A DNA stretch of 63,946 bases, filler included, from Reclinomonas americana ATCC 50394 (lineage: Eukaryota): the NCBI GenBank assembly GCA_048213135.1. It is 5 parts of 3 records of this genome, joined end to end, with 100 filler letters (N's around TTAATTAATTAA, not from the genome) between each part and the next. Parts side by side here need not be neighbours in the genome. Positions count along the whole stretch, not along the records: positions 34,903 to 62,367 come from PS015317.1; positions 62,468 to 63,946 come from PS015339.1; 3 more parts are not named here. The stretch is one strand, 5' to 3'. A program made the translations under genes and the position numbers. The notes beneath the pieces are model-generated. The model was given only the letters and a program-made list of their open reading frames with translations, was not told the DNA's origin and made no database searches. Below, piece after piece: positions 2,621 through 63,917 of this stretch (position 1 is the stretch's first letter; every line of letters starts with the position of its first letter).

Positions 2621-8116
<5,496 letters not shown>

Positions 8117-8603: not shown

Positions 8604-15979
<7,376 letters not shown>

Positions 15980-16072: not shown

Positions 16073-19410
<3,338 letters not shown>

Positions 19411-26194: not shown

Positions 26195-27806
26195 GTCAGC
26201 AACGTGGCGATACGATGATTCGCCAGAGCTGAGCGGAAGCAAACGCACCATAATGTAGTCGGTCAGGCGCTTCTTATTGTCGAGTTCCTGGTCGGCCAGG
26301 AAGCAGCTGACCTCGCTGGGAACGGCACCGAGACGGGCCTTGAGCTGCGCGCATGGAGATAATTGACGATGAGACGAGGAGTACGCGAGAGGAGGGAGGA
26401 CTATAAACAAACCAGTGCGACGGAGCACGAGTGCGGGAGGGCCAGGGAGGAGGGGGAGGACGAGTTGCTCGGTGAGGGAGCAGAGGACGATCGCACGACG
26501 ATATTGTGCGTGCGAATAATCTCCTGTCCCAGGACCGAGGTGGCCACCTTGCCGAGGCCGTGCGAGATCTCGCGTTGTGCTTGCGCCACAATGGCACCCG
26601 ACAAGCACGCCGTCAAGCGCGCCACTCGATCGGTGCGCTCCGACGAACGGCCAGAGGCTGTGGCACAAAAAAGAGGGGGAAAGGATGAGCACTCAAAGAT
26701 CCCAACAGTTGTATGTGATGGAGTAGCACACATACACACACACCTTTGCTGGTGGCCTGATGAATCATTTCGGCCAGCTGTCGCATATCGTCGACAGCCT
26801 CCAGGCACGTGCGCAGCACCTCGGCCGGCATCTCTACAGTCGTCTTGCTGGCGGCGGCGGGTGCTTTCGGCTTCTCCACCGCCGGCATCCGTGGCGCGAG
26901 GTACGCATCGAGAGCGCGATACTCGTAGTGCTCGGCCTCGGCACGGAGCGCACACAAGTCCACGGCGCTCATAAAGTCAATGCCAGCGATCTTGCCGTCG
27001 CGCATAAAGTTGAGCACGTGCGCAAACAGGTCGCCGCTCCTGTGTGCATACGAAAGGGTGGCGGTTGAGCATAACGAGTAAATTCACAAGGCATGCAGAG
27101 GCGTCACTCACCGATCGACAAACACGCGACCCTCGCAGTCCATCAGAGTGCCCTGCTGCATGCCGTTCGCGATGCGCGCCAGACGAGGGGCGCCACAGCC
27201 GGCCAGCGCAGTGCGATCACAGCAGAAAATCTTGCCGCCGACATTGAGGTGCACGAGGCGCATGGCGTTCAGCGGCGACGGTTCTGCGCGAGACGTGTCA
27301 GCGACGGCGATGGTGCATGTTCATGGAAAAAAGAGCTGAACGCAACGAGTGGCGACAGGCAGCGGGGCAGCACTTCGCAAGGCAGCTGCTTTGGGGTGGG
27401 GAGGAAAGTCAGTACGCATGAGAGAGTGAGGCTTGCCATGGAAAAGAGCAAGCACAAACCAGGTGTGCTCCTGCTCGTCGGCGACGCGGGAGAGATGCAA
27501 GCGCGGGTGGGCGAGGGCGACGCCGACAGCGGCCGCAGCGGCTGCTGCTGCGGCGACAACGACCGCTGATACCGCAGTCCATTGACGACCGCCGGCGACG
27601 GCTTCCCCGCAGCAGAAGGTGTCATCGACGCAGCAGCAGCAGCCGCAGCAGCTGCCACTGCACTCGACGGCGACGCCGGCAGTGTAATGCGCAAGCTGTT
27701 GGCAAACGCACTGGTTCGTCGTTGCGCCTGCATCGGATGATTGGGCGACGACACGGAAAGTGCCGGTGGCGCTGCTGTCGCCACTTNNNNNNNNNNNNNN
27801 NNNNNN

Positions 27807-34221: not shown

Positions 34222-37200
34222 TCAACCACCTTCCATTTTCCCCCATTGACNNNNNNNNNNNNNNNNNNNNGATTGATAACATGCATACAGTACACTTGAC
34301 GCGTTTACAAGAATGGCTCGAGCATCTCCTTGAGTTCCACCAGACGACCTGTGTGTGGAGAAGAAGAGGTGAGCAGGAGGAGGGGGGAGACAGAAACACA
34401 GAAGTGTTGAACCTTCGAGGAGTTCTTGGAAGGGGATCATTTGTTGCGGGGCGAATTCACGCGAGGTCTGCAGGGTGAGCTGCAGTACTTGCACGTGTGC
34501 TCGCATGGCCTGTTGCGGAATAAGGAGGTGTGTGAGCAATCGAGAGGACACGAGGGATCAGGTGAGGCAAATGCAGTGCAGTGACTCGCGCTGGGTAGCG
34601 GTGCTCTCTCTCTCTGCCCTCTCTCTCTGTCTCTCTCTCTCTCTCTGCTTCTATTCGTCTGTGTGTCTGTCTATCTCCATAGCTACTCTCTTGCACTCCT
34701 GCTCTAAATACCATACACATGAGAGACTCGTCTCCTTTGCACGCAGTTGTGCATTTTCAGCTTCTCGTCTTCTCCCTTTCCTTCCGTCCTCCTATCTCTC
34801 TCNNNNNNNNNNNNNNNNNNNNNNNNNNNNNNNNNNNNNNNNNNNNTTAATTAATTAANNNNNNNNNNNNNNNNNNNNNNNNNNNNNNNNNNNNNNNNNN
34901 NNCGGTCCTGAGCAAAGGTGCCACTGCGCCGGTATGCCGAGTCGCGTGCATTGGGCGCCCGTGATGCTCGTCGCTCTGCAACGCGATCGATGAGAATCGC
35001 GCATCAAAGAGAAGCAGCAGAACACCACGCACACACACACACACGCACGCACTCAAACATACACACATGGAGAGGACAGGCGAGGCTAGAGAAGAGAGAG
35101 AAAGTGAGTGAGAAAGAGAAAGAGAGAGGGGGAGAAATACACGAGAGAGAGCGAAAGGTGCCGTTATGAGTTGAGAGTCGTCTCGAAAGCGCGACGCAAT
35201 CTTCTCCCCCTCTCTCTTTCTCACTCGTTTACTCTCTTCTCTTCTCTTGCTTCTCCTTTCTCCTCTCTAACATACACACTCTCTGTCTCTCTTCTTCTTA
35301 TTCTTCTTCTTCTCTAGCTTCTCCTGTCTTCTGTAGCACGCACTCTCTCTCCGTCTCTCTTCTTCTTCTTCTTTTTCTCTTTTTTCTTTTGCTTCACCCG
35401 TCTTTTCTCTAACACACACTCTCTGTCTCTCCTTCTCACTCTCCAATTCTTTCTCCTTTTGCTCTTGCTTCACCTGTATTCTCTCTAACAAACACACACA
35501 CACACACTCAGTCTCTCCTTCTCTCTCCTTCTTCTTCATCTTCGTCTTCTCTACCCGAGCCTCTTCTGTCACCATACACACTCTCTCACTCACTTACTCT
35601 CTCCTTCCCCCTTCACTCCCTCCCTCTCCCCCTTTCCCCTTCCTCTCCCTTCCCCCTCCTCCCCCTCCTTTTCACTCACCATCACCACGCTTGCTCTCGC
35701 GCAACCGCCAATTAAAGTACAGCGCCGTGTGCAAAATCTCATCGAAAACCAAATAAAGTGTCTCGTCGCGCAGCTCGGTACCCTGTCGAACACAGTGAGC
35801 ATCACTCGCATCTTCCTCCCCCTCCTTCCCCTTAATCTGCGTAACCTCCACGCCGCTCTCGTAGGCGTCGACCAGCGAGGCCAAAATCGACACGCACACC
35901 GCGCGATCCTTCTCGCTGCCGTTCACGTAGCGCTTGACTTCGGCGATAAACACCGGCAGCACAATGCGACGCGACTCCTCCTGCACCAGCAAGTCGCTGC
36001 CGCACAATTTGCGAATCAGTTCCAGCTTGCCGACCACATGATTGCCTTTGATGTCGTGACGCTGGTCGGCCTCGATGTAGCTGACCACGAAATGCGCAAT
36101 CTCCGAGTGCGAGAACGAGCCGGCCAGCGCTTCGAACATGGTGCTGATGTGCTGTGTGTGATGGAAAGAGTGGTGGTTAGCGAGTGGAAAGAGGGGAGAG
36201 AGAGAGACAAGAGACAGAGCGCGCGCGACTCACCTTGACTGTCTTGTCTTGCACGGCAATGACAAACGGCGGTTCACGCAGTCGCATCATGTCACACAGC
36301 GCCTTGTTCAGGTTCTCCACTTGCCGCCGGAACAAATTGGTCTCTTCGGCCGTGGTACGCGATGGGCCATCGAGAATCGAGTCTGTCGAGCACATGTGAG
36401 CAATTCACCAAGCAACAGCCGAGTCCATCATCACACACAGACCGGAAATGGACGAGCGACCAATGATGGAGACCGTGCGACTCTGCAAGTCCCACTTGAG
36501 CTTCGAGGCAATGACGAAGCGGAACATGTAGTCCAGAGCCTGCGCGTGAGGGGATGAGGAAGCCGACCCGACTTCTGGTGCACTTCACTGTCACCGACAA
36601 CGCACCTTGGTCAACTTCATGACCACATCCTTGTGGGAGCTGTCGGCGACATTCTGCAAATCCGACATCATGCAGTCCAGCAGCTTGATGTGCACACCGC
36701 TAAAAGTAAAGAAGCGCTCAATGTACTGGTCCAGGATCACGCGACAGTTGGCGAATTTGGTGCCGGACAGTTGGCCAATTGTGTACACCAAGTCGTCGTA
36801 GCTGCGCGACGGGTGAGTGACACAACGAGGGGAAACGAGTCTCAGAGAAGGAGACGCAACACAAGACGGCACACGGACTCCTCTTGCCGCGACATGAGAA
36901 TGTGGAAGAGGGCATCGAAAATCTCGCGCAAAAACTGCACAGCGTTTCGTGAGTGTCACCTGCTTCTTGACTATCGAGCAACCACACAAACCTTGACGCT
37001 CTCTGTAAAATCAATGAATGAGAAGCGGCGTAGCAGCTCCTCCAGGTCGCCGCGGTACGAGCGCCACTTGAGAAGGCTGTTGAGACACTCTGTGGGAGGC
37101 ACAGGCTTCGGGTGAGCTCAAAATCGAATACACAATCGTGAAGGAGAGCCGTACCGTCTTGCGTGACACGAGTGGAGACCAGTCGCGTGCGAATGCGGAG

Positions 37201-40200
37201 CACCTCCTTTCGCAGGCCTTGCATCTCCGCTTGCTCAGCTGGGCGGGCGAATAAGAAGTGAGCACTGAGACTCTTCACTCACACAGGAGATGCCAGTGAA
37301 ATCTCACCAGCCGACACGCGAATCAGGTCCTTGAGGGGAATGTTGGCCGCCGGCCCCGATGTCCGCAGCATGGGCACCGAAGAGACGCCATCTGGCACAA
37401 TCAAGCCGTCCTGTGTTGCCACCTTGAACAGGCCAAAGGCGATGGGGTCCGGTTGGTGAAGCTTGTCTGTGGGGGGAGGGAGGAAGGGAGAAGGGAGAAG
37501 GGAGAAGGGAGAAGGGAGGAAGGGAGGAAGGGAGGAAGGGAGTAAGGGAGGAAGAGAGGAAGAGAGGAAGAGAGGAAGAGAGGAAGAGAGGAAGAGAGGA
37601 AGGGAGGGAAGGGGGAGGAGGGAGGGAAGGAAGGGAAGGGAGGGAAAGAGACGGGGAAGACGAAGCGAATGAGAAAAGAGGAGAACAGATAAGTAGGGGG
37701 AAGGGAAGGAAAGAGGGAGAGAAAGAAATAAGGAAGCCGGAAAGGGAAGGAGGAAGGGAGGAAGGAAGGAAGGGAGGAAGGGAGCACGGAGGAAGGGATC
37801 ACGTGGAAGGAGGAGGAAGGGAGGAGGGAGGAAGGGAGGAAGAGAGGAAGGGAGGAATGGGGAGTATGGGGTAGATCGAAAGAGAAAGAGGGAAAGAGAG
37901 AGAGAGAGAGAGCGTGTGTCAGTCAAGCGCAACAACAGTCGACTGTCGCCTACGACGCGACGCAACGAGGCTTCAGCGACACGTGGTACAGCATGACAAA
38001 CACCCACGAGTGTTCAAGCACATTCTTCTCCACCGAGAAACGGATGGTTTCGCGCCATTGCGGCGTGGTGACGTGATAGTACACCGACGAGCGGTACTCG
38101 GTGACGGCGTCGAATCCGGACGCACGGCGAAGCGAGTTCTGCGGTTGTGAGAGAAATGGTAAGAGGGAGAGGAAAGAAGAAGAGAGGACAAGAAAAGAAA
38201 CGCACCGGGATAATGTCACCGCTTCCATTGACCAGGGCAACAGACACCTCCACGCTCTTGGATTCGGCGCCCATGGTGCCGGATTCTGGAGTGGAGAGCG
38301 TCAGAGCCAGCAAAATGCGTGATATGCGCACGACGATAAACTCACCAAGCGTGACATAAAAGTCATTGCGGAACTCGGTCGGCTCAATGACTTCGGGGAA
38401 GCCGAACTTGGGCGTCCGGTTCACTTCCTGCACACGCAAGCATCGGCAGCGAGTGACGACAAAGGAGAAGACAGGAAGGTTGTCACGAAGATGCACTCAC
38501 CCTCAGAGCCGGATTCTCGGCCAGAATCTGGTCCAAAGTGCCGGGGAACATGGTGACGCCCACGCGCAATGCGGCAGGACGTTGTGGTCGTTCCATGCCA
38601 CCGGCGTTGTCGATCAGCACTGCGGGAGGGAAGGGAAGGGTGGGGCACCGTGAGAATAACCGAAAGGGAGCATGCAAGAAAGTAATGAAAGAAATGCAAA
38701 AAAGAGAGAATGAGAGAAAACTTACAAACGAGGAAGAGTGAGGGCGCAGATGAATGGGAAGGAATCGCAAGAAAGAAAGAGACAGATATGCTGAACACGG
38801 CAAAGAGAGAGATAGGGAAACATAGAAATGAACCTCGGAGAAAGTGAGAAGAGAGCACACCGTGGGGAAAGGAAATGCAGGGATACTGAGTATGAAGAAA
38901 TAAGAAAGCGAGAGAGAGAGAGAGAGATACATAAGACCGAAGAGCCGAAGGAGCGGACGAAAAAGTGACAAGAAGAGACCGCAACGCCAACCACGGCAGC
39001 GGGAATGAGGGACAGTGAGAGAGTACACACAGAGAAAATCGTACTGTGCCGCCCTTCTACTGTCAACGCAACAGTCATGCGCCATGGCAAAACTGCCCTC
39101 ATCACGAGGGCACATGAAATCGAGTGGCTCCGGCATCCACTCCTGCTCCTCGGCGAGATCCGTGCGCAGTACTTGGCCGGCCAGCGGCAGCACAGCGATG
39201 GCGTACGGGCGGAGATAATCAGTCTGCATATCAATTAAGAAATGAGTTCGAGAGAAGGCAAGCACACACGACAAGGGACACACACACTCTCTCAATTCTC
39301 CTGCCTCTCTCATTCTCTTACGGTCATGCAGCTCTCTCTCTCTCTCTCTCTCACTGTTTCTCTCGTCTCTCACTGCTCCTATTGAGTACTCAATAGTTAT
39401 ATGCGAAACAGGGGTGTTGAGAAATTACATGTGCATGCCTGTCTGTCTTTGTACGTGTGTCTCTCTCCGTGAGTGCGAGGCTGACACGAGCGAGGGAGCG
39501 AGAGAGAGCGATGACGATTTCGAGCGCTGTTCGTGAACTGTGAGGATCTGTAACGCACCCTTGCACCCGGACGAATCGGCTGATCCTGATGCACAGCGCC
39601 CTGGCGATAGACGCGCACCACCAGGCACAGTCGCGAGTTGACATCGTCGCGCACAATGTCGGTGAAAATGGTGCGCAGATTGCCCAGCAGCTGGCGATCC
39701 ACCGGAATGCCCGTGTCGGCCAGCTTCACACCGTAGTCCTCGGTGAGGAACTGTCGCTTCTCCATGCTGTAGAGCGACAGGAAGACGTGCATTGGCTCGC
39801 CCGTCTGCGCATGGGAAGCGGAACGAAAAGGCAAGATCAGAAATGAGGTGATGAACGTGCAACGAGTTGGTGGCCAGGCGCAACATTAAACGACATGCTC
39901 TTGATGTCCACCATGAAGGCGTACGAGCCGTCGGACAGCTCCAGGCGGTCGGCAGCACCCGACATGCCGGCTGAGGGTGCCTTGTTGGCTGGTGCGCGGC
40001 GCTGTGGATGTACAATCATGGGCACATACAAAGGGCAAAGAAAGAGAGAAGGAGGGAAAGGGGGAGAGGGAGAATGGGAGAGGGAGGGAGGGGAGAGGGG
40101 AGGGGAGAGGAGAGGAGAGGGAGAGGAGAGGAGAGGAGAGGAGAGGAGAGGAGAGGAGAGGAGAGGAGAGGAGAGGAGAGGAGAGGAGAGGAGAGGAGAG

Positions 40201-54043: not shown

Positions 54044-57000
54044 AACCAAACGGCAATCAGAGGCATGATTGCAGCGACAGTGGGACAGAGAGTGAACGAA
54101 GTGACAACTGACGGTGATTAGAAGCTTTCCTGCAGCGAGAGCGAAAAGGGAATCTTCTTTTCTCACTCGTTCACTCTCCCACTCACTGTGTCTCTCCCGC
54201 TCATTATTTCTCTCCCTTTCACTCCTTTTCTTACACTCACTCATTCTCTTCTTCTCTCACTCACTCACTCTCTCACTCCTTCTTCTCTCTCTCACACTCA
54301 CTCACAGTTCTCTTTTCTCGCTCACTCTCTTACTCTCACTCGCGCTCACTTTCTCTTTCGCTCCTTTCACCAACTCCTTCTCTTCTATCACACTCACTAT
54401 CTCTCTCGCTCTCACTCTCGCTCACTCTTTCGCTCCTTGCACTCGCGCCTTCTTCTCCTCTCTCACACTCGCTCTCTCCCTCCCTTCGTCACTCTTTCCC
54501 AAGGGGTTGCAAGTGTTGATTGGTTGTGTCGCGCTGCAGATGCGGTGCAGGGAGTGCCACTGGGTCTCGTGTTTGGATCGGTGCCATACCTATTGCAGGC
54601 CAAGAGCTCGTACACGGACATTGGCATGTTTTCGTTTGCCACCTGGCCTTACGCGCTCAAACTGTTGTGGTCGCCGTTGGTGAGGATGATTCCCTGGGCT
54701 GGTTGATTCTCTCTCTCTCTCCTCCCCTCTATCCCTCTTTGGCTTCCCTCTCTCACTATCGTGTGTCAACTGCTCTCGACTTTTTTTCGTCTCCCTCCCC
54801 CGTTCAATCCCATTTCTTCCTCTTCGCTTCAGCGTCATCACTTGTTCTTGGTTTTCTTTTCATCCTCCACCTCGTATCTGTATCTCTCAATTCTTCCTCT
54901 GTCTTCTCTGACCTCCATGTCTTTCTCCTCTCCTGTCTTGCACTCTCTCAACGTCTGGTACCCCACCATTCTCCATCTCCTCCCCCTCTCCATTTCCTCC
55001 CCTTCTTCCCCAACTCCCCCTCGCCCTCTCCTCCTTCTCCCACCCTCCCCCTTTCCCTTTCTCTCGCCCTTCCCACCACATCCTCCTGCCCCATATCCTC
55101 GTCTCCTCCATCCCGTCTCCTCTTCCCTCACTCTCTCCCTCCTTTCCCTTCTCTAATCCCTTCTCCCTCCTCCTCCTTCTCCCTCCCTCACCCTTCCCCT
55201 CCCACCAGGTCGACCACTTCCACTGGCGCTCCGTGGGCCGCCGCCGCTCATGGATCATGCCCATCAACATGATCTCTGGCGCCCTCATGCTCTACGGCGG
55301 CGTCTATGCCGACGCGTTGCTGTCGCAGGAAACGCTGAACATCGCGCTCATCACGATGTATGCGTTTGTTCTGGTCACGCTCATGGCCACGCAAGACATT
55401 GCGGTGGATGGATGGGCGCTGACGCTGCTGTCGCGGAGACACGTGGGGCTGCAAGTTTCGTGGCGGAGGGAAAACGAAAAGGGGGAAAGAGTCGCCATAG
55501 TTACCCATTTTCGTTGCAGTCGACGGCGCAAACCCTCGGCATGTCGGTCGGCTTCTTCACCTCGTTCACTATCTTCTTGGCGCTGAGTTCGGTCGAGTTC
55601 TGCAACTCATTTTTGCGATCCACGCCGTCCACGGAGCCGTTGGTGACGCTCGGAGGCTATCTCCAGTTCTGGGGGGTGATTTATGTTTGTTTCACTATCC
55701 TGCTGGTGTTTGTGCGCGAGGACGTCAACCGCCAGTCGGTGGCATCGCAGCAGTCCAGTCTGCGCTACGTGTACACGCAGCTGTGGTCCATTGTCAAGTC
55801 CAAGAGTTGCGCTTATTTGTTGATTCAACCAAGATGCTGTATTGTGTGGACTGAACTGTCGAGTGCAGACACGCGGCGTTTGTTGCTCTTGCTCACCATT
55901 TGCAAGTTTGGCTTCACGGTCATTGACTCTGGTGAGTGTGGGTTGATGAGCGTCTTAGGAATTTCGACTCACGTCTCCCTATCCCCCCTCAAAGTGACCG
56001 GGCTGAAACTGGTCGAGCTCGGATTCCGTCGAGATCACCTCGCATTGGTTTCGTTTATCATCACATGTGCTGCTTTTTCATGATGAGAGGACTCACAACA
56101 CCTCCTTGCGTGCAGATTGTCACCTTGTGTTTCCCGTTCGAGTTCATTTTTGCGATTATCGCTGGTCGCATGGTGACCGTGTCCAGCAGCCCACTCGAGC
56201 CGGTGTGTTCAAATGTGCCACGTGGTCTCACTGCGTCACGGTTGTACTCACACCGTCTTTCGTACACAGTGGCTGAAGACGTATCAGTTCCGCATCGGTG
56301 AGTTTCTCTGCTGCAAGCGTGTGAACTGGCGATCAGAGTGTTCACTTGTGTTCGTGCTCCGCAGTGGTTGCCGGTCTCGGTTCGATGATGGTGGTATTCA
56401 TTCAGCTGTCGGATGGCGAGGAAGTTGGTGCTGGATCGCTTCTGCTTGTGCTCACCATGGTGCGTCTGCATTCCTTGCGTCGGTTCGAGTGGAGACGAAC
56501 GCTTACATGTCGTGCACGTGCAGTTTTTGTTATACTCGGTCGCTCGCAACGTGCAAGCTGTATCTCTGGTGAGTAGGGGAAGGGAAAGAAGAGTCGCAAC
56601 AAGAGCAAAGGAGAGAGTGAGGAGTCTTGAGGACACTTTCTCCTTGGGTGAGGAAGCAGAGGAGTTGGTAGGAGAAGGGAAGGAGAGTCTCAGCAAGAGC
56701 AAAGGAGAGAGTGAGGAGTCTTGAGGACACTTTCTTCTTGCGTGAGGACGCAGAGGAGCTGTGTTGCTGGTTGGTAGTGGAATGAGGAGAGAAGGAGAGA
56801 ATAAGAAGTCTTTTCGATCGTAGAGGAGCAATCTGCGTTTGCAGCCTGGCTATTGTCAACGAGAGAATGCGTCTTCAGAAGCGCTCTGACACTTCCCTCT
56901 CTCTGCCGCACACATAGAGTGCATACTTTTCTCGGGTCTCCGACATGGACATTGCTGGAACCCATATGACGCTGTTGAACACGGTCATTAACTTTGGCGG

Positions 57001-57850
57001 CATGTGGCCCTCGATGTTGGTGCTGCCGGCTGTCGATTGGCTCAGTGTGCGTCGGTGCTCCCTGTCAGGTGACCACGTCCGTCTGTGCCCCGCGCCTCTT
57101 CCCACCACTCTTCTCACCATGATGTTGTGCTTGCGGTAGGTGAATCGTGCAATGTGGAGCTGTCGGCGTCCGAATCGTGTGGCCGATGCAATGTGCGATT
57201 CGACGGCTACTACGGTAAGAATTGCTCATTCACGTTACCATCCACTCTCCACCTCTCAATCTCGTCGCCATCGCGCAGTGGTGGCCTTTCTGTGTTTTGC
57301 TGCGGGTATCGCGCTCTACTGGCCGATTGCCCGACTGTGCCGCATGCTGGGTCCACTCGGACCCGACGACTTCAAGAAGCCCGAGGTGGACATTGATGAC
57401 TTGCTGTCGTCTACGGCGCGGCCACTGCCACTCGCCACCTCCACCGCTTGTGCCGGCAGCGTGCAAATGGATCCGTCACCACTGCCATTGGCGCGCACCA
57501 TGCACGTCAGCGAGGCGGGTGTTTTTGTGGAGATACTCGACGGTGGCGACAGCGGCGACGACGACCATGTTCATCCGCCGCCGCCGCCGTTGGAGAATGC
57601 GCGCACGAATGGCAGTGCGCATGCGCATGCCGACGACGATATCGAGGAGGAGGAGGATGGCGACGACACCACGGCACTCCTGCCCGTCCGCACTCCGTCG
57701 GCGGCCTCGGCATCGCTCCTGCGGCGATCGTCATCGCTGGTCGTGTCAGCGAGTGCTGTGCCGACAACCGCCACTGCGGCGGCAGTTGCGCACTCGGCCG
57801 GCTCGCCCCGCCGTGCTGATGCTGTCAGTCCGCCGACGGCGCTCAGGTAG
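53089..57850 (+). CDS. SLC33A1: Acetyl-CoA transporter 1 (MFS, AT-1)
   Basis: LLCFL|YAVQGVPLGL, FSFATWPYALKLLWSPL|VD, GRRRSWIMP, ATQDIAVDGWALTLLS, AQTLGMSVGFF, TGLKLVELGF, SDMDIAGTHMTLLNTVINFGGMWP, DGYY. Confidence 0.93.
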
Positions 57851-59518
57851 CTCCCAGTAAACCAATAGATTGTGGACCGTCTCGATCGCACAGAAACGTC
57901 ATTACGCGCGCCTCCTCGACCACAAAGCACCGCAGCACCAGTTGCGGTAGCGACTCCGCTGGATACTCGTCGTCATCACCGCCCTCCCCCGGCACCTCCT
58001 CCAAGTCGTTCACANNNNNNNNNNNNNNNNNNNNNNNNNNNNNNNNNNNNNNNNGCCTCCAGTGCCATCTCGGCCGCCCCATACTCGCCACGCATGTAAC
58101 TCTGCACCACACCTGCATGTGCACTCGTGAGGAACGTGCAAGACAGCAACGGACTCCATTGCTGTCTTGGTCATACAAACCCGGCCACAGGCGCAACGTG
58201 CCGTCGACTGCACACGACAGAATGTTGCCGGTCTCGAGAAACACCGCCGAGCGAATCGCATTGGCATGCCCCTCGTACACGGCAAGCCGCAGCCCCGGCG
58301 TACGCATGTGCCACACGCACATGGTTTTGTCTGCGACGCTGGAGTTAAGACAAATGACAGAGAAGAAAAGCCGTGCTCCTTGCCNNNNNNNNNNNNNNNN
58401 NNNNNNNNNNNNNNNNNNNNNNNNNNNNNNNNNNNNNNNNNNNNNNNNNNNNNNNNNNNNNNNNNNNNNNNNNNNNNNNNNNNNNNNNNNNNNNNNNNNN
58501 NNNNNNNNNNNNNNNNNNNNNNNNNNNNNNNNNNNNNNNNNNNNNNNNNNNNNNNNNNNNNNNNNNNNNNNNNNNNNNNNNNNNNNNNNNNNNNNNNNNN
58601 NNNNNNNNNNNNNNNNNNNNNNNNNNNNNNNNNNNNNNNNNNNNNNNNNNNNNNNNNNNNNNNNNNNNNNNNNNNNNNNNNNNNNNNNNNNNNNNNNNNN
58701 NACACACACACACCGTGTGACGCGCTGAGCAGAAACTCCTCGTCGTCCGACACGCACAGACTCGACACGCACAACCGGTGACCACACAGCTCATCAAAGC
58801 CAACAAAGGCCCGTCGATGCGGCATGCCGGGGTTGGGAACAACAGCAATGCGCCCATCGACACAACCACAAAAGAGCAGGCGATCGCGCGCAACATAGGC
58901 CAACGAGCGCACCGAGTCCTGCATCGCACGCAGCGTCACCGCCTGTATAGGCTGTGCGTCCCCTGCTGGCCACAGACACACTGTTTCGTCGGCAGATCCA
59001 CTGGCCAACCACTCATCGCCGACCAGCGCCAGTGCATTCACCGCGCCCGTGTGCCCGCGCAACTCGCGCAGCACTTGTCCATCTGCAGCATCCCACACAC
59101 AGATGCGCCTGTCGACTGACGCGCTAAACACTGCACGACCATCGCTGCTCATGGCCACCGCCATCACACCATCATCGTGTCCACTGGCACGCCACGCGAG
59201 GCTGACCTGCTCACTCGACTCATCCAGTGTCCACATGCACACTGGTCGCTCACCCGGATGCTTCCCTCCAAAGCCGCACACGAGCTTGGTGTGATCCACA
59301 GGGGAGAATGTGAGGCAGGTGATGGCTCCGAGGGTGGTGGCGTGCGAGAAGAGCAGGCGATGCATGCCTAGTGTGAGTGTGAACACGCGCAGAGTGCCGT
59401 CAAAGGAACCACTGGCGATCCACTGTGGAAGGCGGCGAGTGGGCGACACGGCGAGCTGGTTGACGGTGGCGGGGTGCTCGCCGACGCGAAAGAGCTCTTG
59501 GTGGATGCGGAGGGGCAT
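57843..59518 (-). CDS. WD40 protein A with C-terminal LVLRCF module
   Basis: GH...WD-type repeats (SGSFDGTLRVF, SASVDRRICVWD, SGSADETVCLW, SCAVDGTLRLW). Tail YMRGEYGAAEMALEAVNDLEE...ESLPQLVLRCFVVEEARV. Confidence 0.85.
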
Positions 59519-59553
59519 GTGTGTGAAAAGGATAGAAGGACGGAGGACAACTC

Positions 59554-61650
59554 TCATTCATTGGAGGACACTGCCCATCGGTATGCCCACGCTCGTGCAT
59601 CTTCCTCAATGAAGCATCGCAGCACGAGCGATGGCAGAGGTTCTGCGGCAAAGTCGTCGTCGTCATTGTCTGCCTCGACTTTGATATCCTGCACAGCGTT
59701 GCGGGCATGCAGAATGGCCGCGATGTCTTGGCGTGCACAGGTGACAGGATTCCACTTGCCTGCGTGCGTGTTTTTTTGGTGAGGGGCGGGGTGCGTGAGA
59801 GATGATGAAGGAGGAGAGTACCGGCGGCCCACATCACCGCCGTGGTGTCGTTGGAGCCGCTGATCACGCGACCGTCGCGCAGCACGGCGAGTGTGTTGAC
59901 GCGAAGGCGGTGGCCGGTGATCTGGGCGCACAACTCTCCGCTGGCGTATTCGCGCACGTAGATGATGCGGTCTGTGGGAAGGAAAAGGGAGAATGGGCGA
60001 AGGTGGATGAGGGGGAAGGAGAGGGGAATGAGGGGAAGGGGAAGGGGGAAGGGGGAAAGGAGAAGGGGGAAAGGAGAAGGGGAANNNNNNNNNNNNNNNN
60101 NNNNNNNNNNNNNNNNNNNNNNNNNNNNNNNNNNNNNNNNNNNNNNNNNNNNNNNNNNNNNNNNNNNNNNNNNNNNNNNNNNNNNNNNNNNNNNNNNNNN
60201 NNNNNNNNNNNNNNNNNNNNNNNNNNNNNNNNNNNNNNNNNNNNNNNNNNNNNNNNNNNNNNNNNNNNNNNNNNNNNNNNNNNNNNNNNNNNNNNNNNNN
60301 NNNNNNNNNNNNNNNNNNNNNNNNNNNNNNNNNNNNNNNNNNNNNNNNNNNNNNNNNNNNNNNNNNNNNNNNNNNNNNNNNNNNNNNNNNNNNNNNNNNN
60401 NNNNNNNNNNNNNNNNNNNNNNNNNNNNNNNNNNNNNNNNNNNNNNNNNNNNNNGGAAAGGAGGAAGGAAAAGGGGGAAAGAACAGGGGGAAGGAACAGG
60501 GCGAAGGAGAAGGGGGAAGGAGAAGTGGGAGTGGCAAAGGGAAGTGGGAAAGCTGAGAGGCAATGTTGAAGGAGTGGGGATACAGGATGTGGGAAGAAGG
60601 AAAGGATGAAGCATTCAGTGAACAAACAGGAAGTGAGGAAAGCAGGAACATGGGAATGACTGACGAAAGAAGACAAACATGTAAACACAGATAATGAGAA
60701 TTAGAGACGTCGAAAGCAGCGGACGAAGAAGGGCAAGCGAAGTGGGAAATGAGAAGAACGCCGAGACAAGCCCTGCGAACGAGAAACTCTTTCTCTCTCT
60801 CTTGACCTTTGACCTTGGGACAGAGAGAGCATCTTGTCACCCTCACGCCACGCAATGAAGAGGAAATTGGGAATCCGAAAGAAGCATGACGAGAATTCCC
60901 ACTCTCCGCCATCCACCACTCACCATTCGACGCCACAAACACGTACTTCCCACACGGCGAGAAGACCAGCGCGGTGATTGTACCGACCACAGAGTCGTGC
61001 ATGGCAACCCACGAGCGCGTCAAGAAATTCTCCGCATGCGACCACACCCACACAGCACCATAACAGTCGCCAAACAAAATCTCCCGCTCATCGCTACTCC
61101 ACGTCACCGCACCGGTGCCAGACTGACCCAAACGAGGCGAGCTGACCCGCGCACCCGTTTCTGTATCGTATACATGCGCAATATCGGCGCGCTCACCGGC
61201 GCACACGAGCAGCTTGCCGTCTCGCGACAGCGCCAACCCTCCAGGACCCACATTCGTCGTTGCCAATGTGCGCAAGCACTCTCCACTGCTCACGTCCCAC
61301 GTGCACACGCGATAGTCCGATGATCCCGAGTACAGGAGACGTCCGTCGGGCGAGAACACCACAGCATTCACCGCACCGTCATGCACACGTCCACACCACA
61401 CCAGAGGGCTTTCCCTCCACTCCTCGTCCTCCTCCCCCTCCTCCTTCATGTCTTCCGCTGGAGGACATCGCCATAGAATGACCACACAGTTGCCTTGAAT
61501 GATACCGCCACTGGCCAACACCGATGAGTCTGCTGGAGAAAACGCGACCGACACCACCGAGCGAACGTGTCCCTCCAGCACGTGCAGCAAGTCGCCGCTC
61601 TCCACATCGAATACGCGGACGAGGTAGTCGCCACAGGCGGTGGCCAGGAG
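59554..61650 (-). CDS. WD40 protein B with C-terminal LVLRCF module; 5' exon(s) not located
   Basis: LEGHVRSVVSVAFSP, HDGAVNAVVFSPDGRLLYSGSSDYRVCTWD, GHRLRVNTLAVLRDGRVISGSNDTTAVMW. Tail ARQDIAAILHARNAVQDIKVE...EPLPSLVLRCFIEEDARA. Confidence 0.85.
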   Translation of the reverse strand, partial: LLATACGDYLVRVFDVESGDLLHVLEGHVRSVVSVAFSPADSSVLASGGIIQGNCVVILWRCPPAEDMKEEGEEDEEWRESPLVWCGRVHDGAVNAVVFSPDGRLLYSGSSDYRVCTWDVSSGECLRTLATTNVGPGGLALSRDGKLLVCAGERADIAHVYDTETGARVSSPRLGQSGTGAVTWSSDEREILFGDCYGAVWVWSHAENFLTRSWVAMHDSVVGTITALVFSPCGKYVFVASNGEWWMAESGNSRHASFGFPISSSLRGVRVTRCSLCPKVKGQEREKEFLVRRACLGVLLISHFACPSSSAAFDVSNSHYLCLHVCLLSSVIPMFLLSSLPVCSLNASSFPSSHILYPHSFNIASQLSHFPLPLPLLLPPSPSPCSFPLFFPPFPSSFXXXXXXXXXXXXXXXXXXXXXXXXXXXXXXXXXXXXXXXXXXXXXXXXXXXXXXXXXXXXXXXXXXXXXXXXXXXXXXXXXXXXXXXXXXXXXXXXXXXXXXXXXXXXXXXXXXXXXXXXXXXXFPFSFPPSPFPLPPSPSPHSPLLPPHPPSPILPFPSHRPHHLRARIRQRRVVRPDHRPPPSRQHTRRAARRSRDQRLQRHHGGDVGRRYSPPSSSLTHPAPHQKNTHAGKWNPVTCARQDIAAILHARNAVQDIKVEADNDDDDFAAEPLPSLVLRCFIEEDARAWAYRWAVSSNE

Positions 61651-61675
61651 CTGGGGTGGAAGGAGGGAAGGAGGA

Positions 61676-61714
<39 letters not shown>

Positions 61715-61750
61715 AGAGAGAGAGAGAGAGNNNNNNNNNNNNNNNNNNNN

Positions 61751-61828
<78 letters not shown>

Positions 61829-62367
61829 AGAGTGAGAGAAGAAAAGAGAATGAGAACAGCAAGAGAAAGCTGAGCGTGGATACAGGGAGCTTGCAGGAGA
61901 GAGGCAAGTGGAGAGACAGAGTAGAAAGAGAGAGTGAGAGAAGAAAGGAGAATGGGAACAGCAAGAGAAAGCTGAGCGTGGATACAAGGAGCATACAAGA
62001 AAGAGCAACCTTGCACTGTCTGAGCTGCCCGGGGACCAAGAGAGAGAAGTGAGAGCGAGAGAAAGAAAGAGAGAGAGAGAGTAATTATAAGAGAAACACG
62101 AGAGTGAAGAGAAAGAGAAAAGAGAGCTAACGAGAGAAAGCACAGTGTGGATACAAGGGACATGCAAGAAAGAGCAACCTGGCACTGTGCGAGCTGCCCA
62201 AGAAGAGAGAACAGTGAGAGAAGTGAGAGTGAGAGAGAGAGAGAAGAGAGTGAAGAGAGTGAAGACAGAGAGAGAGAGAGAGAGTGTGTGAGAGAGAGAG
62301 AGAGAGAGCAGATGAATAGAATGTTAGAACATAACGAAAGGAACATGACAAGAGAGACGAACCGTGG

Positions 62368-62467
62368 NNNNNNNNNNNNNNNNNNNNNNNNNNNNNNNNN
62401 NNNNNNNNNNNTTAATTAATTAANNNNNNNNNNNNNNNNNNNNNNNNNNNNNNNNNNNNNNNNNNNN
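62368..62467. other. Artificial contig-join spacer
   Basis: TTAATTAATTAA at 62412-62423 flanked by N runs. Confidence 0.95.
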
Positions 62468-62825
62468 GGGGAAGGAGAGAGAGAAGGGAGAGGATGGAGA
62501 GGGAGAGGAAGGGAGAAGGGAGAGGGAGAGGAAGGGAGACAGAGAACGTGTGTGCTCGATCGCGTGTTCTGCGTACTTGCGTGTGAATGTGTCCTCATGT
62601 TGGAGGACGATTGATTGCTCCGTGGTCGAAGTTCGTGAAGGGTTTGTGGTCAATCTCAACTCCGTAGCGTGCACCCAGAACGTGTGCTTTGCCCTGCACA
62701 CCTCGACTCAACAGAGGTCCACCCCAGCTGCACGAATTGACATTCATACATTACGAGTCATCACAACAGAAAAGGACAAGAACACAACATTCTCTCAACC
62801 CTTATCCCTCGCCTTCTCCTCAAAG

Positions 62826-63917
62826 TCACAGACGATGGCTGCTGTCCGGAAAGCATCGATGCATGACGACCTCAGCCTCCTCGACCACGAAACAACGCAG
62901 CACGATCTCCACCAAACAGCGCGGATCTGGATCGGCTTCCCCTTTACCCTCCTCTCGCTGCAGCTCCTGCACTGCTTGCATGGCCGACTGCGCGCATCTG
63001 ACCTCCTGTTGCGCGAGGCCGTAAGGTGTGGACCACACGCGCACAGTCTTATCCACAGATCCGCTCACGATGTGCTGACCGTCGGGAGAGACGACGACAG
63101 CGAACAGGCTTCTAGTGTGCCCCTCCAGCCGCCGCACTTCCTCGCCACTCGCCATGGACCACACTCGCACGGTCTTGTCCCAACTACCACTCACCACGTG
63201 GCGACCATCGGGAGTGACGGCGACAGACATAACCATATGCGCGTGACCCACTATTTGTCGCAATTCCTCGCCGCTCTCCACGCACCACACTCGAACCGTC
63301 CCGTCCCAGCTCCCGCTCACCACGTGCCGACCGTCGGGAGTGACTGCGACAGAGGCCACGGCTGCCGAGTGTCGGTCCCACCGTTGCAGTTGTTCTCCAC
63401 TCGCCAGCGACCACACGCACACTGTATTGTCCGCACTCCCACTGACAACATGCTGACCGTCAGGAGCAAAGGCAACAGAGTACACGGCACGAGTGTGCCC
63501 CTCCAGCCATTGCACTGTCTCGCCGCTCGCCAGCGACCACACTCGCACACTCTTGTCGTCGCTCCCACTCACAATGAACTGACCATCCGGAGAGACGGCA
63601 ACGCAACGCACTGAAGATTTGTCTATCTTCAACCGCTGCACCTCCTCGCCACTCGCCAGTGACCACACACGCACAGTACCATCAACCGCTCCACTCACAA
63701 TGTGCTCACTGTCGGGAGTGACGGCGACGGCTTTCAGCCTACTTGTGTGTCCCTGCAAATGCAACACCTGCTCTCCACTCGCCACAGACCACACTCGCAC
63801 GCTGCATCCACTCGCAGACACCACATGTTGACCAGTGGGAGTGACTGCGACGGAATAGACGGTGTCGGGGTGTCCATGCAGGCATCGTGAAGGGAGAGAT
63901 GGAGGCGCAACGGACAT
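62826..63917 (-). CDS. Intronless 7-bladed WD40 protein C with highly similar repeats and C-terminal IVLRCF module
   Basis: Single 363-aa ORF with seven ~42-aa repeats (GH..V.SVAV[TS]PDG.H[IV]VSGS.D.TVRVW). Tail AQQEVRCAQSAMQAVQELQ...CLVEIVLRCFVVEEAEV. Confidence 0.92.
   Translation of the reverse strand: MSVAPPSLPSRCLHGHPDTVYSVAVTPTGQHVVSASGCSVRVWSVASGEQVLHLQGHTSRLKAVAVTPDSEHIVSGAVDGTVRVWSLASGEEVQRLKIDKSSVRCVAVSPDGQFIVSGSDDKSVRVWSLASGETVQWLEGHTRAVYSVAFAPDGQHVVSGSADNTVCVWSLASGEQLQRWDRHSAAVASVAVTPDGRHVVSGSWDGTVRVWCVESGEELRQIVGHAHMVMSVAVTPDGRHVVSGSWDKTVRVWSMASGEEVRRLEGHTRSLFAVVVSPDGQHIVSGSVDKTVRVWSTPYGLAQQEVRCAQSAMQAVQELQREEGKGEADPDPRCLVEIVLRCFVVEEAEVVMHRCFPDSSHRL

What the first reader, a model, noticed from the sequence alone, without database searches (positions are those of the whole stretch)
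57843..63917. Tandem WD40 trio sharing an unrecognised C-terminal 'LVLRCF' module: candidate cullin-ligase substrate-receptor family
Seen in sequence: three adjacent same-strand WD40 genes have clearly different propellers but the same ~55-aa tail. A: YMRGEYGAAEMALEAVNDLEEVPGEGGDDDEYPAESLPQLVLRCFVVEEARV (joined across a 40-N gap). B: CARQDIAAILHARNAVQDIKVEADNDDDDFAAEPLPSLVLRCFIEEDARA. C: LAQQEVRCAQSAMQAVQELQREEGKGEADPDPRCLVEIVLRCFVVEEAEV. The pattern is helix, acidic linker, then L[PV]x[LI]VLRCF[VI]xE[ED]A. Established: repeat domain plus short C-terminal adaptor box is the design of WSB/ASB SOCS-box proteins (BC-box [STP]LxxxC) and poxviral ankyrin-PRANC proteins (C-terminal F-box-like LPxEI). 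Inference: the tail resembles both but matches neither exactly, so it may be a lineage-specific adaptor that plugs variable WD40 readers into one ubiquitin ligase or another constant partner.
Basis: partly seen in the sequence, partly recalled or inferred. Interest (0 to 1): 0.85.

Follow-up and report, generated by a model that had tools for sequence, protein, structure and literature searches.

The report
WD40 paralogs sharing a conserved C-terminal helical hairpin
Three neighbouring WD40-propeller genes of an intron-rich protist end in the same short, conserved two-helix tail that matches no known domain; it probably docks the different propellers to a common partner, but nothing found here links it to a ubiquitin ligase.

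Summary
Three minus-strand WD40 genes (A 57843-59518, B 59554-61650, C 62826-63917) end in one homologous tail of about 60 aa with the core L(P/V)xxVL[RK]CF[IV]xE[ED]A. That core is expected 2e-6 times by composition and occurs 3 times. The tails are 32-45% identical and the propellers 28-31%. In the VLRCF codons the three genes differ only at synonymous sites.

New here:
- In A and B the tail is a separate exon behind a phase-1 GT-AG intron at the same place. C has no intron.
- The tail occurs elsewhere: a Reclinomonas americana EST protein and two unnamed 394- and 420-aa proteins. It always sits at the extreme C-terminus behind a propeller-sized domain.
- AlphaFold2 predicts an antiparallel alpha-hairpin, with helices of 26 and 21 residues joined by an acidic loop.
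- No Pfam or PDB sequence match was found, and structure searches gave only generic hairpins.
- BC-box, Cul5-box and F-box-start patterns match 0 of 6 tails. A loose Cul2-box-like pattern matches 4 of 6.
- C is separated from B by an artificial contig-joining linker, so its adjacency is not proven.

Best reading: a small undescribed family whose hairpin is a constant docking or assembly handle. A cullin-ligase role is untested, because no SKP1, Elongin C or DDB1 sequence was available.

The parts
62826..63917 (-). Gene C: one uninterrupted ORF of 363 aa plus stop. It holds a 7-bladed WD40 propeller (residues about 10-296) and the tail (296-363).
   Evidence: ORF. Pfam WD40 E 8e-77 with 7 stretches. 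AF2 pLDDT 90.6 with 28 strands. Foldseek and VIA matches to 7-bladed WD40 structures cover model residues 4-298.
62829..63032 (-). Tail of C (68 aa). Predicted helix 1 is 62949-63026, the acidic loop 62916-62948, and helix 2 62853-62915. The core VLRCF is at 62889-62903.
   Evidence: Alignments A1 and A2. AF2 helices 298-323 and 335-355 in the full protein, and 3-28 and 40-60 when the tail is folded alone.
60924..61650 (-). Gene B, large propeller exon. Its 5' limit is uncertain: it opens behind a (GA)n array at an AG, and the first half-blade and start codon were not found.
   Evidence: Pfam WD40 3.4e-16. Sequence. The three-exon model is 1080 nt (360 aa) with no stop.
59972..60923 (-). B intron 1 (952 nt as assembled). 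Donor GTGAGT, pyrimidine-rich body, acceptor CACAG. It contains N gap 60085-60454.
59822..59971 (-). B exon encoding the last WD40 blade.
   Evidence: Pfam WD40 6.8e-5 on the 52-aa piece. Splice model.
59760..59821 (-). B intron 2 (62 nt, GTACTC...CGCAG), phase 1 in a Gly codon, between the last blade and the tail exon.
   Evidence: The spliced blade plus tail is 354 nt with no stop.
59554..59759 (-). B tail exon including stop 59554-59556. The core VLRCF is at 59611-59625.
58703..59518 (-). Gene A, 5' propeller part (272 aa from the ATG at 59518). The ORF is already open from an ATG at 59557 that overlaps B's stop codon.
   Evidence: Pfam WD40 4.8e-31 with 4 stretches. Sequence.
58181..58384 (-). 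A exon with the last WD40 blade, cut on its 5' side by N gap 58385-58701.
   Evidence: Pfam WD40 1.3e-7 on the 57-aa piece..
58113..58180 (-). A intron (68 nt, GTTTGT...TGCAG), phase 1 in a Gly codon, at the same place as B intron 2.
57843..58112 (-). A tail exon including stop 57843-57845, interrupted by the 40-N gap 58015-58054. The core VLRCF is at 57924-57938.
   Evidence: A profile built from the other five tails scores the post-gap piece 40 bits. The pre-gap piece fits profile positions 9-20 only weakly, at 0.1 bits.
62368..62467 (.). Artificial spacer (44 N, TTAATTAATTAA, 44 N) between the sequence piece holding A and B and the piece holding C.
   Evidence: The identical spacer also occurs at 9385-9484, 18775-18874 and 34803-34902.

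Best explanation
A, B and C are paralogs of a small, so far undescribed family of single-propeller WD40 proteins, about 360-420 aa long. A 7-bladed propeller is followed directly by a conserved C-terminal antiparallel alpha-hairpin.

The hairpin has three parts. Helix 1 is amphipathic with small Ala residues on its packing face. A short acidic loop of variable length follows. Helix 2 carries the invariant L...VL[RK]CF..E.A.

The hairpin most likely acts as a constant docking or assembly handle. One face of helix 2 packs on helix 1. The remaining invariant hydrophobic residues of helix 2 are left exposed and bind something held constant, namely a common partner protein or complex. The fast-diverging propellers would supply different binding specificities.

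Shown: the family, the tail's conservation, its exon structure and its predicted fold. Inferred: the docking role and the existence of a constant partner. The partner is unknown, and a cullin-RING adaptor is only one candidate.
For: 1. The tail is real and non-random and better conserved than the propellers: 32-45% against 28-31% identity.

2. A profile of the three window tails, run against 1.84 billion representative proteins, gave 8 hits at E<=1e-3.
- 3 of the 8 are true tails at the extreme C-terminus behind a propeller-sized domain: P0002 (116 aa, 5.6e-18; named by its source as a Reclinomonas americana EST ORF), P0005 (394 aa, 1.1e-7) and P0009 (420 aa, 2.4e-4).
- The other 5 are repeat-driven false hits, with no single stretch above 6.4 bits under the six-tail profile.
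- P0009's first ~360 aa match no Pfam family at E<=0.001 (only DpnI_C at 0.066), yet its tail keeps LPxxVLKCFIxEDA.

3. The VLRCF codons of A, B and C differ at 3 of 15 sites, all synonymous third positions.

4. The tail is a separate exon behind a phase-1 intron at the same position in A and B.

5. AF2 gives a helix-loop-helix both in the whole protein (pLDDT 86 / 63 / 75-85) and when folded alone (mean pLDDT 83.9). The hairpin's confidence therefore does not depend on the propeller.

6. The invariant residues of helix 2 (335, 339, 340, 342, 343, 346 in C) span about 160 degrees of a helical wheel. That is more than a two-helix hairpin can bury (my own geometry from alignment A2).

7. None of the 120 closest propeller relatives of C carries the tail (0 of 120). 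The tail is not a general feature of such propellers.
Against: - No partner is identified and no binding was tested.
- I could not inspect model coordinates or PAE, so packing of the hairpin on its own propeller is not excluded.
- The alignment behind the models has only 6 rows.
- The family is tiny in public data: 3 window genes plus 3 proteins. Statements about invariance rest on 6 sequences.
- A and B are incomplete (N gaps) and their introns are inferred from sequence only, without RNA evidence.
- C's adjacency crosses an artificial linker.
- The six-tail profile was run only through the word-indexed search, not exhaustively.
Confidence: 0.5

Rival explanations
1. One reading: the tail is a lineage-specific cullin-RING substrate-receptor box. 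It would bind SKP1, Elongin C or DDB1 and make these propellers substrate receptors.
For: - The design is known: a variable repeat domain plus a short conserved terminal helical box. WD40-SOCS proteins such as WSB1 carry a C-terminal SOCS box of about 40 aa (PMC4812663 and PMC3355856 passages). [quoted passage not shown]
- The tail is a helix-loop-helix directly abutting the propeller.
- 4 of 6 tails fit the loose Cul2-box consensus Phi-P-x-x-Phi-x-x-x-Phi.
Against: - Pfam gives no family for any of the 6 tails at E<=10, and it includes F-box, F-box-like, PRANC and SOCS_box models.
- The BC-box matches 0 of 6, the Cul5-box LP-Phi-P 0 of 6, and LPxE[ILV] 0 of 6.
- A WDxR-like motif is found 0 times in any of the 11 sequences scanned: the eight window pieces (propeller and tail) plus P0002, P0005 and P0009. 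The motif is recalled as typical of DCAFs.
- The hairpin is C-terminal and about 58 aa. The DCAF1 H-box is N-terminal and about 30 aa.
- No F-box, SOCS, VHL or DCAF chain is among the 50 best structural matches of the tail, which does not exclude them.
Confidence: 0.17
2. The hairpin is an oligomerisation element. Two or more hairpins bundle, for example into a ROP-like four-helix bundle, joining propellers into homo- or hetero-oligomers of the paralogs.
For: - An isolated two-helix hairpin with an extra exposed hydrophobic face usually needs a second hairpin or a partner (general knowledge).
- The tail's weak structural neighbours are mostly bundle-forming hairpins: a ROP variant 1f4n (Foldseek E 4.0), the ESCRT-I core 2f66/2caz and EncB (Z 6.9-7.2).
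- Several paralogs with the same tail exist in one genome.
Against: - All structural matches are below the tool's own noise mark for helical models (Z under about 13) and have Foldseek E > 3.
- Nothing specific points to self-association.
Confidence: 0.2
3. The hairpin is an intramolecular cap that packs on the bottom or side of its own propeller. It would be conserved for folding or stability only.
For: - Helix 1 starts 1-2 residues after the last strand, so the hairpin is held close to the propeller.
- pTM of 0.85 for the whole model suggests a fairly defined arrangement.
- C-terminal extensions packing on propellers are known in other WD40 proteins (recalled, e.g. coronin).
Against: - The tail stays conserved while the propeller diverges beyond Pfam recognition in P0009. 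A purely intramolecular interface should co-vary with the propeller.
- Tail pLDDT is not higher in the context of the propeller than when the tail is folded alone.
Confidence: 0.13

Closest known systems
WD40-SOCS box proteins (WSB1/WSB2) and other SOCS/VHL-box receptors
   Same: A WD40 propeller is followed by a short conserved helical module at the extreme C-terminus, and total size is about 400 aa. 4 of 6 tails fit the loose Cul2-box pattern Phi-P-x-x-Phi-x-x-x-Phi.
   Different: No BC box (0 of 6) and no LP-Phi-P (0 of 6; consensus from PMC3355856 and PMC4812663). No Pfam SOCS_box match. The tail is predicted as two long helices of 26 and 21 residues, not a box of about 40 aa.
DCAF receptors of CRL4 (DDB2, CSA, DCAF1) with their helix-loop-helix H-box
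   Same: A helix-loop-helix directly flanks a 7-bladed WD40 propeller (PMC6821201 passages; AF2 models).
   Different: Here the motif is C-terminal, not N-terminal, and about twice as long. No WDxR-like motif is found in any propeller piece. There is no detectable sequence similarity.
F-box and poxviral ankyrin-PRANC proteins
   Same: A variable repeat domain is joined to a conserved short terminal box that begins with Leu-Pro in 4 of 6 tails.
   Different: No Pfam F-box, F-box-like or PRANC match at E<=10. LPxE[ILV] matches 0 of 6. Only about 25 residues follow the LP, forming one helix rather than three (the three-helix description is recalled).
Generic bundle-forming alpha-hairpins (ROP, ESCRT-I core hairpins, EncB)
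   Same: An antiparallel two-helix hairpin of similar length. These are the best, though weak, structural neighbours.
   Different: Scores are within noise (Foldseek E > 3; Z <= 7.3). There is no sequence relation and the context is different.
Highly repetitive WD40 propellers of bacteria and fungi and designed WRAP-T propellers
   Same: C's propeller is 41-43% identical to the Thermomonospora curvata WD40 domain 5yzv and to designed 7-bladed propellers (Z 46-48, rmsd 1.0-1.1 over 277-287 residues). Its seven 42-aa units are 47% identical to each other on average.
   Different: None of the 120 closest propeller relatives carries the tail.

Membership tests
WD40 beta-propeller proteins | WD40 repeats forming a 7-bladed propeller | tested here: met
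   Pfam PF00400 in A, B and C. AF2 model of C has pLDDT 90.6. Z 44-48 to solved 7-bladed WD40 chains over model residues 4-298.
SOCS box (WSB type) | BC box (S,T,P)LXXX(C,S,A)XXX-Phi (consensus from PMC3355856 passages) | tested here: not met
   The pattern matches 0 of 6 tails. It still matches 0 of 6 when the first position is left free.
SOCS box (WSB type) | Cul5 box with LP-Phi-P (PMC4812663 passages) | tested here: not met
   0 of 6. The fourth position is L, L, I, M, V or L, never Pro.
SOCS box (WSB type) | Match to the curated sequence profile (Pfam SOCS_box) | tested here: not met
   hmmscan of 6 tails against Pfam-A at E<=10 returned 0 families. HMMER filters drop most matches above about 0.1.
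SOCS box / VHL box | Binding to Elongin B/C | not testable with these tools
   No Elongin sequence of this or any eukaryote could be obtained.
VHL box | Cul2 box Phi-P-X-X-Phi-X-X-X-Phi lying 8-23 aa C-terminal to a BC box (PMC3355856 passages) | tested here: inconclusive
   The Cul2-like pattern is present in 4 of 6 tails (A, B, P0002, P0009) and absent in C and P0005. The required upstream BC box is absent in all 6. The pattern is loose.
F-box / PRANC | Match to Pfam F-box, F-box-like or PRANC profiles | tested here: not met
   0 families at E<=10 for 6 of 6 tails.
F-box / PRANC | Binding to SKP1 | not testable with these tools
   No SKP1 sequence was available.
DCAF (CRL4 receptors) | [quoted passage not shown] | tested here: inconclusive
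   A helix-loop-helix is predicted, but it is C-terminal and about 58 aa against about 30 aa in DCAF1. DDB1 binding was not testable.
DCAF (CRL4 receptors) | WDxR motifs at the ends of WD repeats (motif recalled, from no call) | tested here: not met
   W[DE].[RK] matches 0 times in the propeller pieces of A, B and C and in P0002, P0005 and P0009.

The most novel reading that the evidence does not exclude
The hairpin is a new type of E3-ligase receptor box, used by jakobid-like protists and at least one AT-rich eukaryote. In this reading a C-terminal two-helix handle plugs interchangeable WD40 propellers into a cullin-RING adaptor (SKP1, Elongin C or DDB1) or another E3. It would have arisen independently of F-box, SOCS/VHL box and H-box.
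Probability: 0.15. Interest if true: 0.7.

Novelty: new variant of a known kind. Interest (0 to 1): 0.4.

Why it matters
Short terminal boxes that tie variable repeat domains to constant machinery organise large parts of eukaryotic proteostasis and signalling. Almost all known boxes (F-box, SOCS/VHL box, H-box) were defined in animals, fungi and plants.

The module described here is conserved, has its own exon and matches no profile. It sits on propellers from a deep-branching, poorly sampled protist lineage, since the nearest named relative is a Reclinomonas americana EST. It is a concrete, testable candidate for a lineage-specific box.

If its partner turned out to be a ligase adaptor, that would show independent invention of the receptor-box design. 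If the partner is something else, it still defines a new small domain family. As it stands the finding is a solid but modest one: a real family, with function unproven.

Tried and rejected
- **Whole genome:** none is held for this window, so copy number and other domain architectures in this organism could not be counted.
- **Word-indexed search, tail of C:** 4 candidates, none at E<=10.
- **Word-indexed search, six-tail profile, 'longer' setting:** only P0005 and P0009.
- **Word-indexed search, whole C:** 3410 generic WD40 hits, of which 0 of the 120 listed carry the tail.
- **ESM Atlas:** no usable hit for the tail. For P0009 only weak leads with no shared family and distant PQQ-propeller clusters at 0.88-0.89.
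- **PDB sequence search with the six-tail profile:** 4 rows at E 2.4-9.4, all designed helical repeats.
- **Related loci:** P0009 in viral contigs gave none. The tail pattern in metagenome contigs gave 23 pattern matches, none confirmed. P0005 in metagenome contigs gave 595 pattern matches, none confirmed.
- **Structure search of the tail alone:** Foldseek best E 3.1 and VIA-align best Z 7.3. These are generic hairpins only. No F-box, SOCS, VHL or DCAF chain is among the 50 rows shown, which does not exclude them.
- **Complex prediction with two copies of the tail:** no verdict. The score was 0.01 against a mark of 0.32, the alignment was not used, and the partner's own fold was uncertain. This is no evidence either way.
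- **Sequencing runs for 58702-60084:** none was listed and no RNA holder was listed, so the introns and the possible B-to-A splice have no RNA test.
- **Earlier findings of the scan:** nothing by place, by sequence or by words.
- **Literature:** 'VLRCF' anywhere in the text gave 1 unrelated paper on Chandipura virus (listing only). 'WD40 / helical hairpin / C-terminal / propeller / dimerization' gave 13 papers, none about such a tail (listing only). 'WD40 / C-terminal / SOCS box / protist' gave 2 papers, neither relevant (listing only).
- **Beta-strand idea, rejected:** I considered that LVLRCFVV might be a strand completing a blade. AF2 predicts a helix there, and C already has 7 full blades.
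- **PTS1 or CaaX-type signal, rejected:** the last residues are not conserved among the six tails.
- **Fish Ig-repeat proteins P0003, P0004, P0006, P0008 and catfish RT-repeat protein P0007, rejected as relatives:** their scores are sums of many stretches of at most 6.4 bits each.


Full report
**Setting.** The window is a draft eukaryotic assembly with 29 N runs, many (GA)n/(CT)n and (GT)n arrays, and intron-split genes. Pfam found pieces of MutS, Vps52, IF3, DOCK and an acetyl-CoA transporter on separate short ORFs; 11 of 138 ORF pieces had a family at E<=0.001. No whole genome is held. Four of the gaps are 44 N + TTAATTAATTAA + 44 N, an all-frame stop linker used to join contigs. One of these (62368-62467) lies between gene C and gene B.

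**The observation.**
- Gene C (62826-63917, minus) is one ORF of 363 aa with seven WD40 stretches (PF00400, E 8e-77).
- Gene A has a 272-aa WD40 piece (58703-59518; 4.8e-31) and a last blade (58164-58334; 1.3e-7).
- Gene B has a 260-aa WD40 piece (60871-61650; 3.4e-16) and a last blade (59817-59972; 6.8e-5).
- A pattern for the tail core occurs three times in the six-frame translation of all 63,946 bases, only at these tails. By composition VLRCF is expected 0.075 times and the longer core 2e-6 times.
- The tails give 34-40 bits in pairwise blastp at 32-45% identity. The propellers are 28-31% identical.
- The invariant columns in the three-tail alignment are E, L, V-L-R-C-F, E and A.

**Gene structure.** In A and B the tail is not in the frame of the last blade. 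The DNA explains this.
- B's last blade ends at a donor GTACTC (59821). A 62-nt pyrimidine-rich stretch ends in CGCAG, and the tail frame opens at 59759. The spliced blade plus tail is 354 nt without a stop.
- A has the same arrangement: donor GTTTGT at 58180, acceptor TGCAG, exon resuming at 58112, intron 68 nt.
- Both introns are phase 1 and split a Gly codon a few residues after the Trp that ends the last blade. The blade-tail junction is therefore inherited, and the tail has its own exon.
- C has no intron there.
- B has a further intron of 952 nt as assembled (GTGAGT...CACAG, 59972-60923, containing an N gap). The three-exon model is 1080 nt (360 aa) and open. B's start and first half-blade were not found upstream, where there are microsatellites and gaps.
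- A's tail is cut by a 40-N gap. The post-gap piece scores 40 bits against a profile of the other five tails. The pre-gap piece fits positions 9-20 only weakly, at 0.1 bits. None or a few residues may be missing.
- The core codons for V-L-R-C-F differ among A, B and C at three third positions, all synonymous. The similarity is therefore kept by selection on the protein, not by recent gene conversion.

**Distribution.**
- A profile of the three window tails was run by HMMER over 1.84 billion representative proteins, giving 8 hits at E<=1e-3.
- Three are true tails. P0002 (116 aa, 5.6e-18) is a last WD40 blade plus tail, 62% identical to C, named by its source as an ORF of a Reclinomonas americana EST. 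P0005 (394 aa, 1.1e-7) is WD40 by Pfam. P0009 (420 aa, 2.4e-4) comes from an AT-rich coding sequence with no Pfam family at E<=0.001.
- In all three the tail is the extreme C-terminus and follows the same S/N-(T)-P junction after the last blade.
- The other five hits are fish immunoglobulin-repeat proteins and a catfish reverse-transcriptase protein with a tandem repeat. Under the six-tail profile no single stretch of theirs exceeds 6.4 bits, against 92-111 bits for the true tails.
- The six-tail profile in the word-indexed search of 5.8 billion proteins found only P0005 and P0009 again.
- The 120 best propeller relatives of C are all generic WD40 proteins, mostly bacterial or metagenomic. None carries the tail (0 of 120).
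- Scans of viral and metagenome contigs found nothing.
- The family is therefore real, wider than this organism, and rare in present collections.

**What the tail is.**
- Pfam finds nothing in any of the six tails, even at E<=10.
- A PDB sequence search gives only designed helical repeats at E>2.
- The ESM Atlas gives no usable hit.
- AlphaFold2 on C with a six-row alignment gives a confident 7-bladed propeller (pLDDT 90.6, pTM 0.85). It is followed at once by helix 298-323 (pLDDT about 86), a loop 324-334 (63) and helix 335-355 (75-85).
- The tail folded alone gives the same helix-loop-helix with mean pLDDT 83.9.
- Structure searches with the whole model match only residues 4-298, to ordinary WD40 propellers.
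- The tail alone has no Foldseek match at E<=0.001 (best 3.1). Its VIA-align neighbours have Z<=7.3 and are generic hairpins such as the ESCRT-I core, EncB and a ROP variant. That is within the tool's stated noise for helical models.
- The tail is therefore an antiparallel alpha-hairpin with no recognisable relative.

**How it may work.**
- Helix 1 shows a 4-3 spacing of hydrophobic and small residues (conserved A, hydrophobic, A, hydrophobic, V, hydrophobic). This is typical of the packing face of a hairpin.
- Helix 2 is hydrophobic over eleven consecutive positions. Its invariant residues spread over about 160 degrees of the helical wheel, more than packing on helix 1 can bury (my own geometry).
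- The tail remains conserved on P0009, whose propeller has drifted beyond Pfam recognition. An interface with the protein's own propeller would be expected to drift with it.
- I therefore favour an external, constant binding partner, or another hairpin, for the exposed face of helix 2. The propellers would act as the variable part.
- This is inference. I could not see model coordinates or PAE. The one complex job, two copies of the tail, gave no verdict.

**Comparison with known boxes.**
- The BC-box consensus (S,T,P)LXXX(C,S,A)XXX-Phi and the Cul2-box consensus come from passages of PMC3355856. The Cul5-box LP-Phi-P and the SOCS box size of about 40 aa come from passages of PMC4812663.
- On the six tails the BC box matches 0 of 6, and still 0 of 6 with the first position free. 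The position after C-x-x-x is the invariant Glu.
- LP-Phi-P matches 0 of 6. The Cul2-like pattern matches 4 of 6, but without the required upstream BC box.
- An F-box-like start LPxE[ILV] (recalled) matches 0 of 6.
[quoted passage not shown] That is the nearest analogue in shape. However, the H-box is N-terminal and about 30 aa, and WDxR-like motifs (recalled) are absent here (0 matches).
- The tail therefore fails the testable defining features of SOCS, VHL and F-box membership and is inconclusive for the H-box. This lowers 'it is one of these', not 'it works like one'.
- Binding to SKP1, Elongin C or DDB1 could not be tested, because no such sequence could be brought in.

**Verdict.**
This is a small, undescribed WD40 family with a conserved C-terminal alpha-hairpin that has its own exon.
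- The specific cullin-ligase claim is unsupported but not excluded, at about 0.15-0.2.
- Oligomerisation (0.2) and an intramolecular cap (0.13) remain alive.
- The tandem 'trio' is secure only for A and B. C sits across an artificial linker, although a second family member in the same orientation right behind it suggests real linkage or a larger family.
- Interest is moderate. The domain family is new, but there is no function yet, and the draft state of the locus limits what can be said.

Noticed in passing
window 9385-9484, 18775-18874, 34803-34902, 62368-62467: Four identical spacers of 44 N + TTAATTAATTAA + 44 N. The record is a concatenation of contigs or scaffolds, so gene order across these points (including C next to B) is not direct sequence evidence.
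   Followed up: partly
window 59496-59560 (minus strand): B's stop codon overlaps an ATG that opens A's reading frame (ATGA), and A's likely start at 59518 is only about 36 nt downstream. A pyrimidine tract followed by AG at 59497/59498 would let B's phase-1 donor (59821) splice in frame into A's ORF; the model has 315 aa and no stop. This raises the possibility of a B-A double-propeller isoform or of co-transcription. No RNA data were available.
   Followed up: partly
window 62826-63917 (gene C): C's propeller is seven exact 42-aa units with 47% mean pairwise identity (up to 69%). Variation is concentrated just after the GH dipeptide and around the S-x-D positions. Its closest structures are a bacterial WD40 domain and designed propellers at 41-43% identity. 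This is high internal repeat conservation of the kind seen in bacterial and fungal repetitive WD40 proteins.
   Followed up: partly
window 61674-62308: The region between C and B is filled with (GA)n arrays and a 102-nt unit present 1.8 times (90% matches). B's first exon was not found there.
   Followed up: partly
window 26616-27083 (minus strand): An ORF piece has a weak BTB_2 (KCTD-type BTB) match (E 6.2e-4, below Pfam's cut-off). It is possibly an exon of a BTB protein. No link to the WD40 genes was examined.
   Followed up: no
P0007 (catfish protein, residues about 360-790): A reverse-transcriptase protein carries seven copies of a unit with an acidic run followed by ALPTFVLNIFVV. This superficially resembles the acidic loop plus LPxxVLxCF of the tail. 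Per-copy scores are at most 6.4 bits, so it was treated as chance.
   Followed up: partly
window 3568-3981, 9487-14011, 17086-17442, 35675-39885, 54912-56080: Exon pieces of MutS (domain V), Vps52, an IF3-like factor, a DOCK-family exchange factor (DOCK_N, C2, TPR) and an acetyl-CoA transporter. These are ordinary intron-split eukaryotic genes.
   Followed up: no
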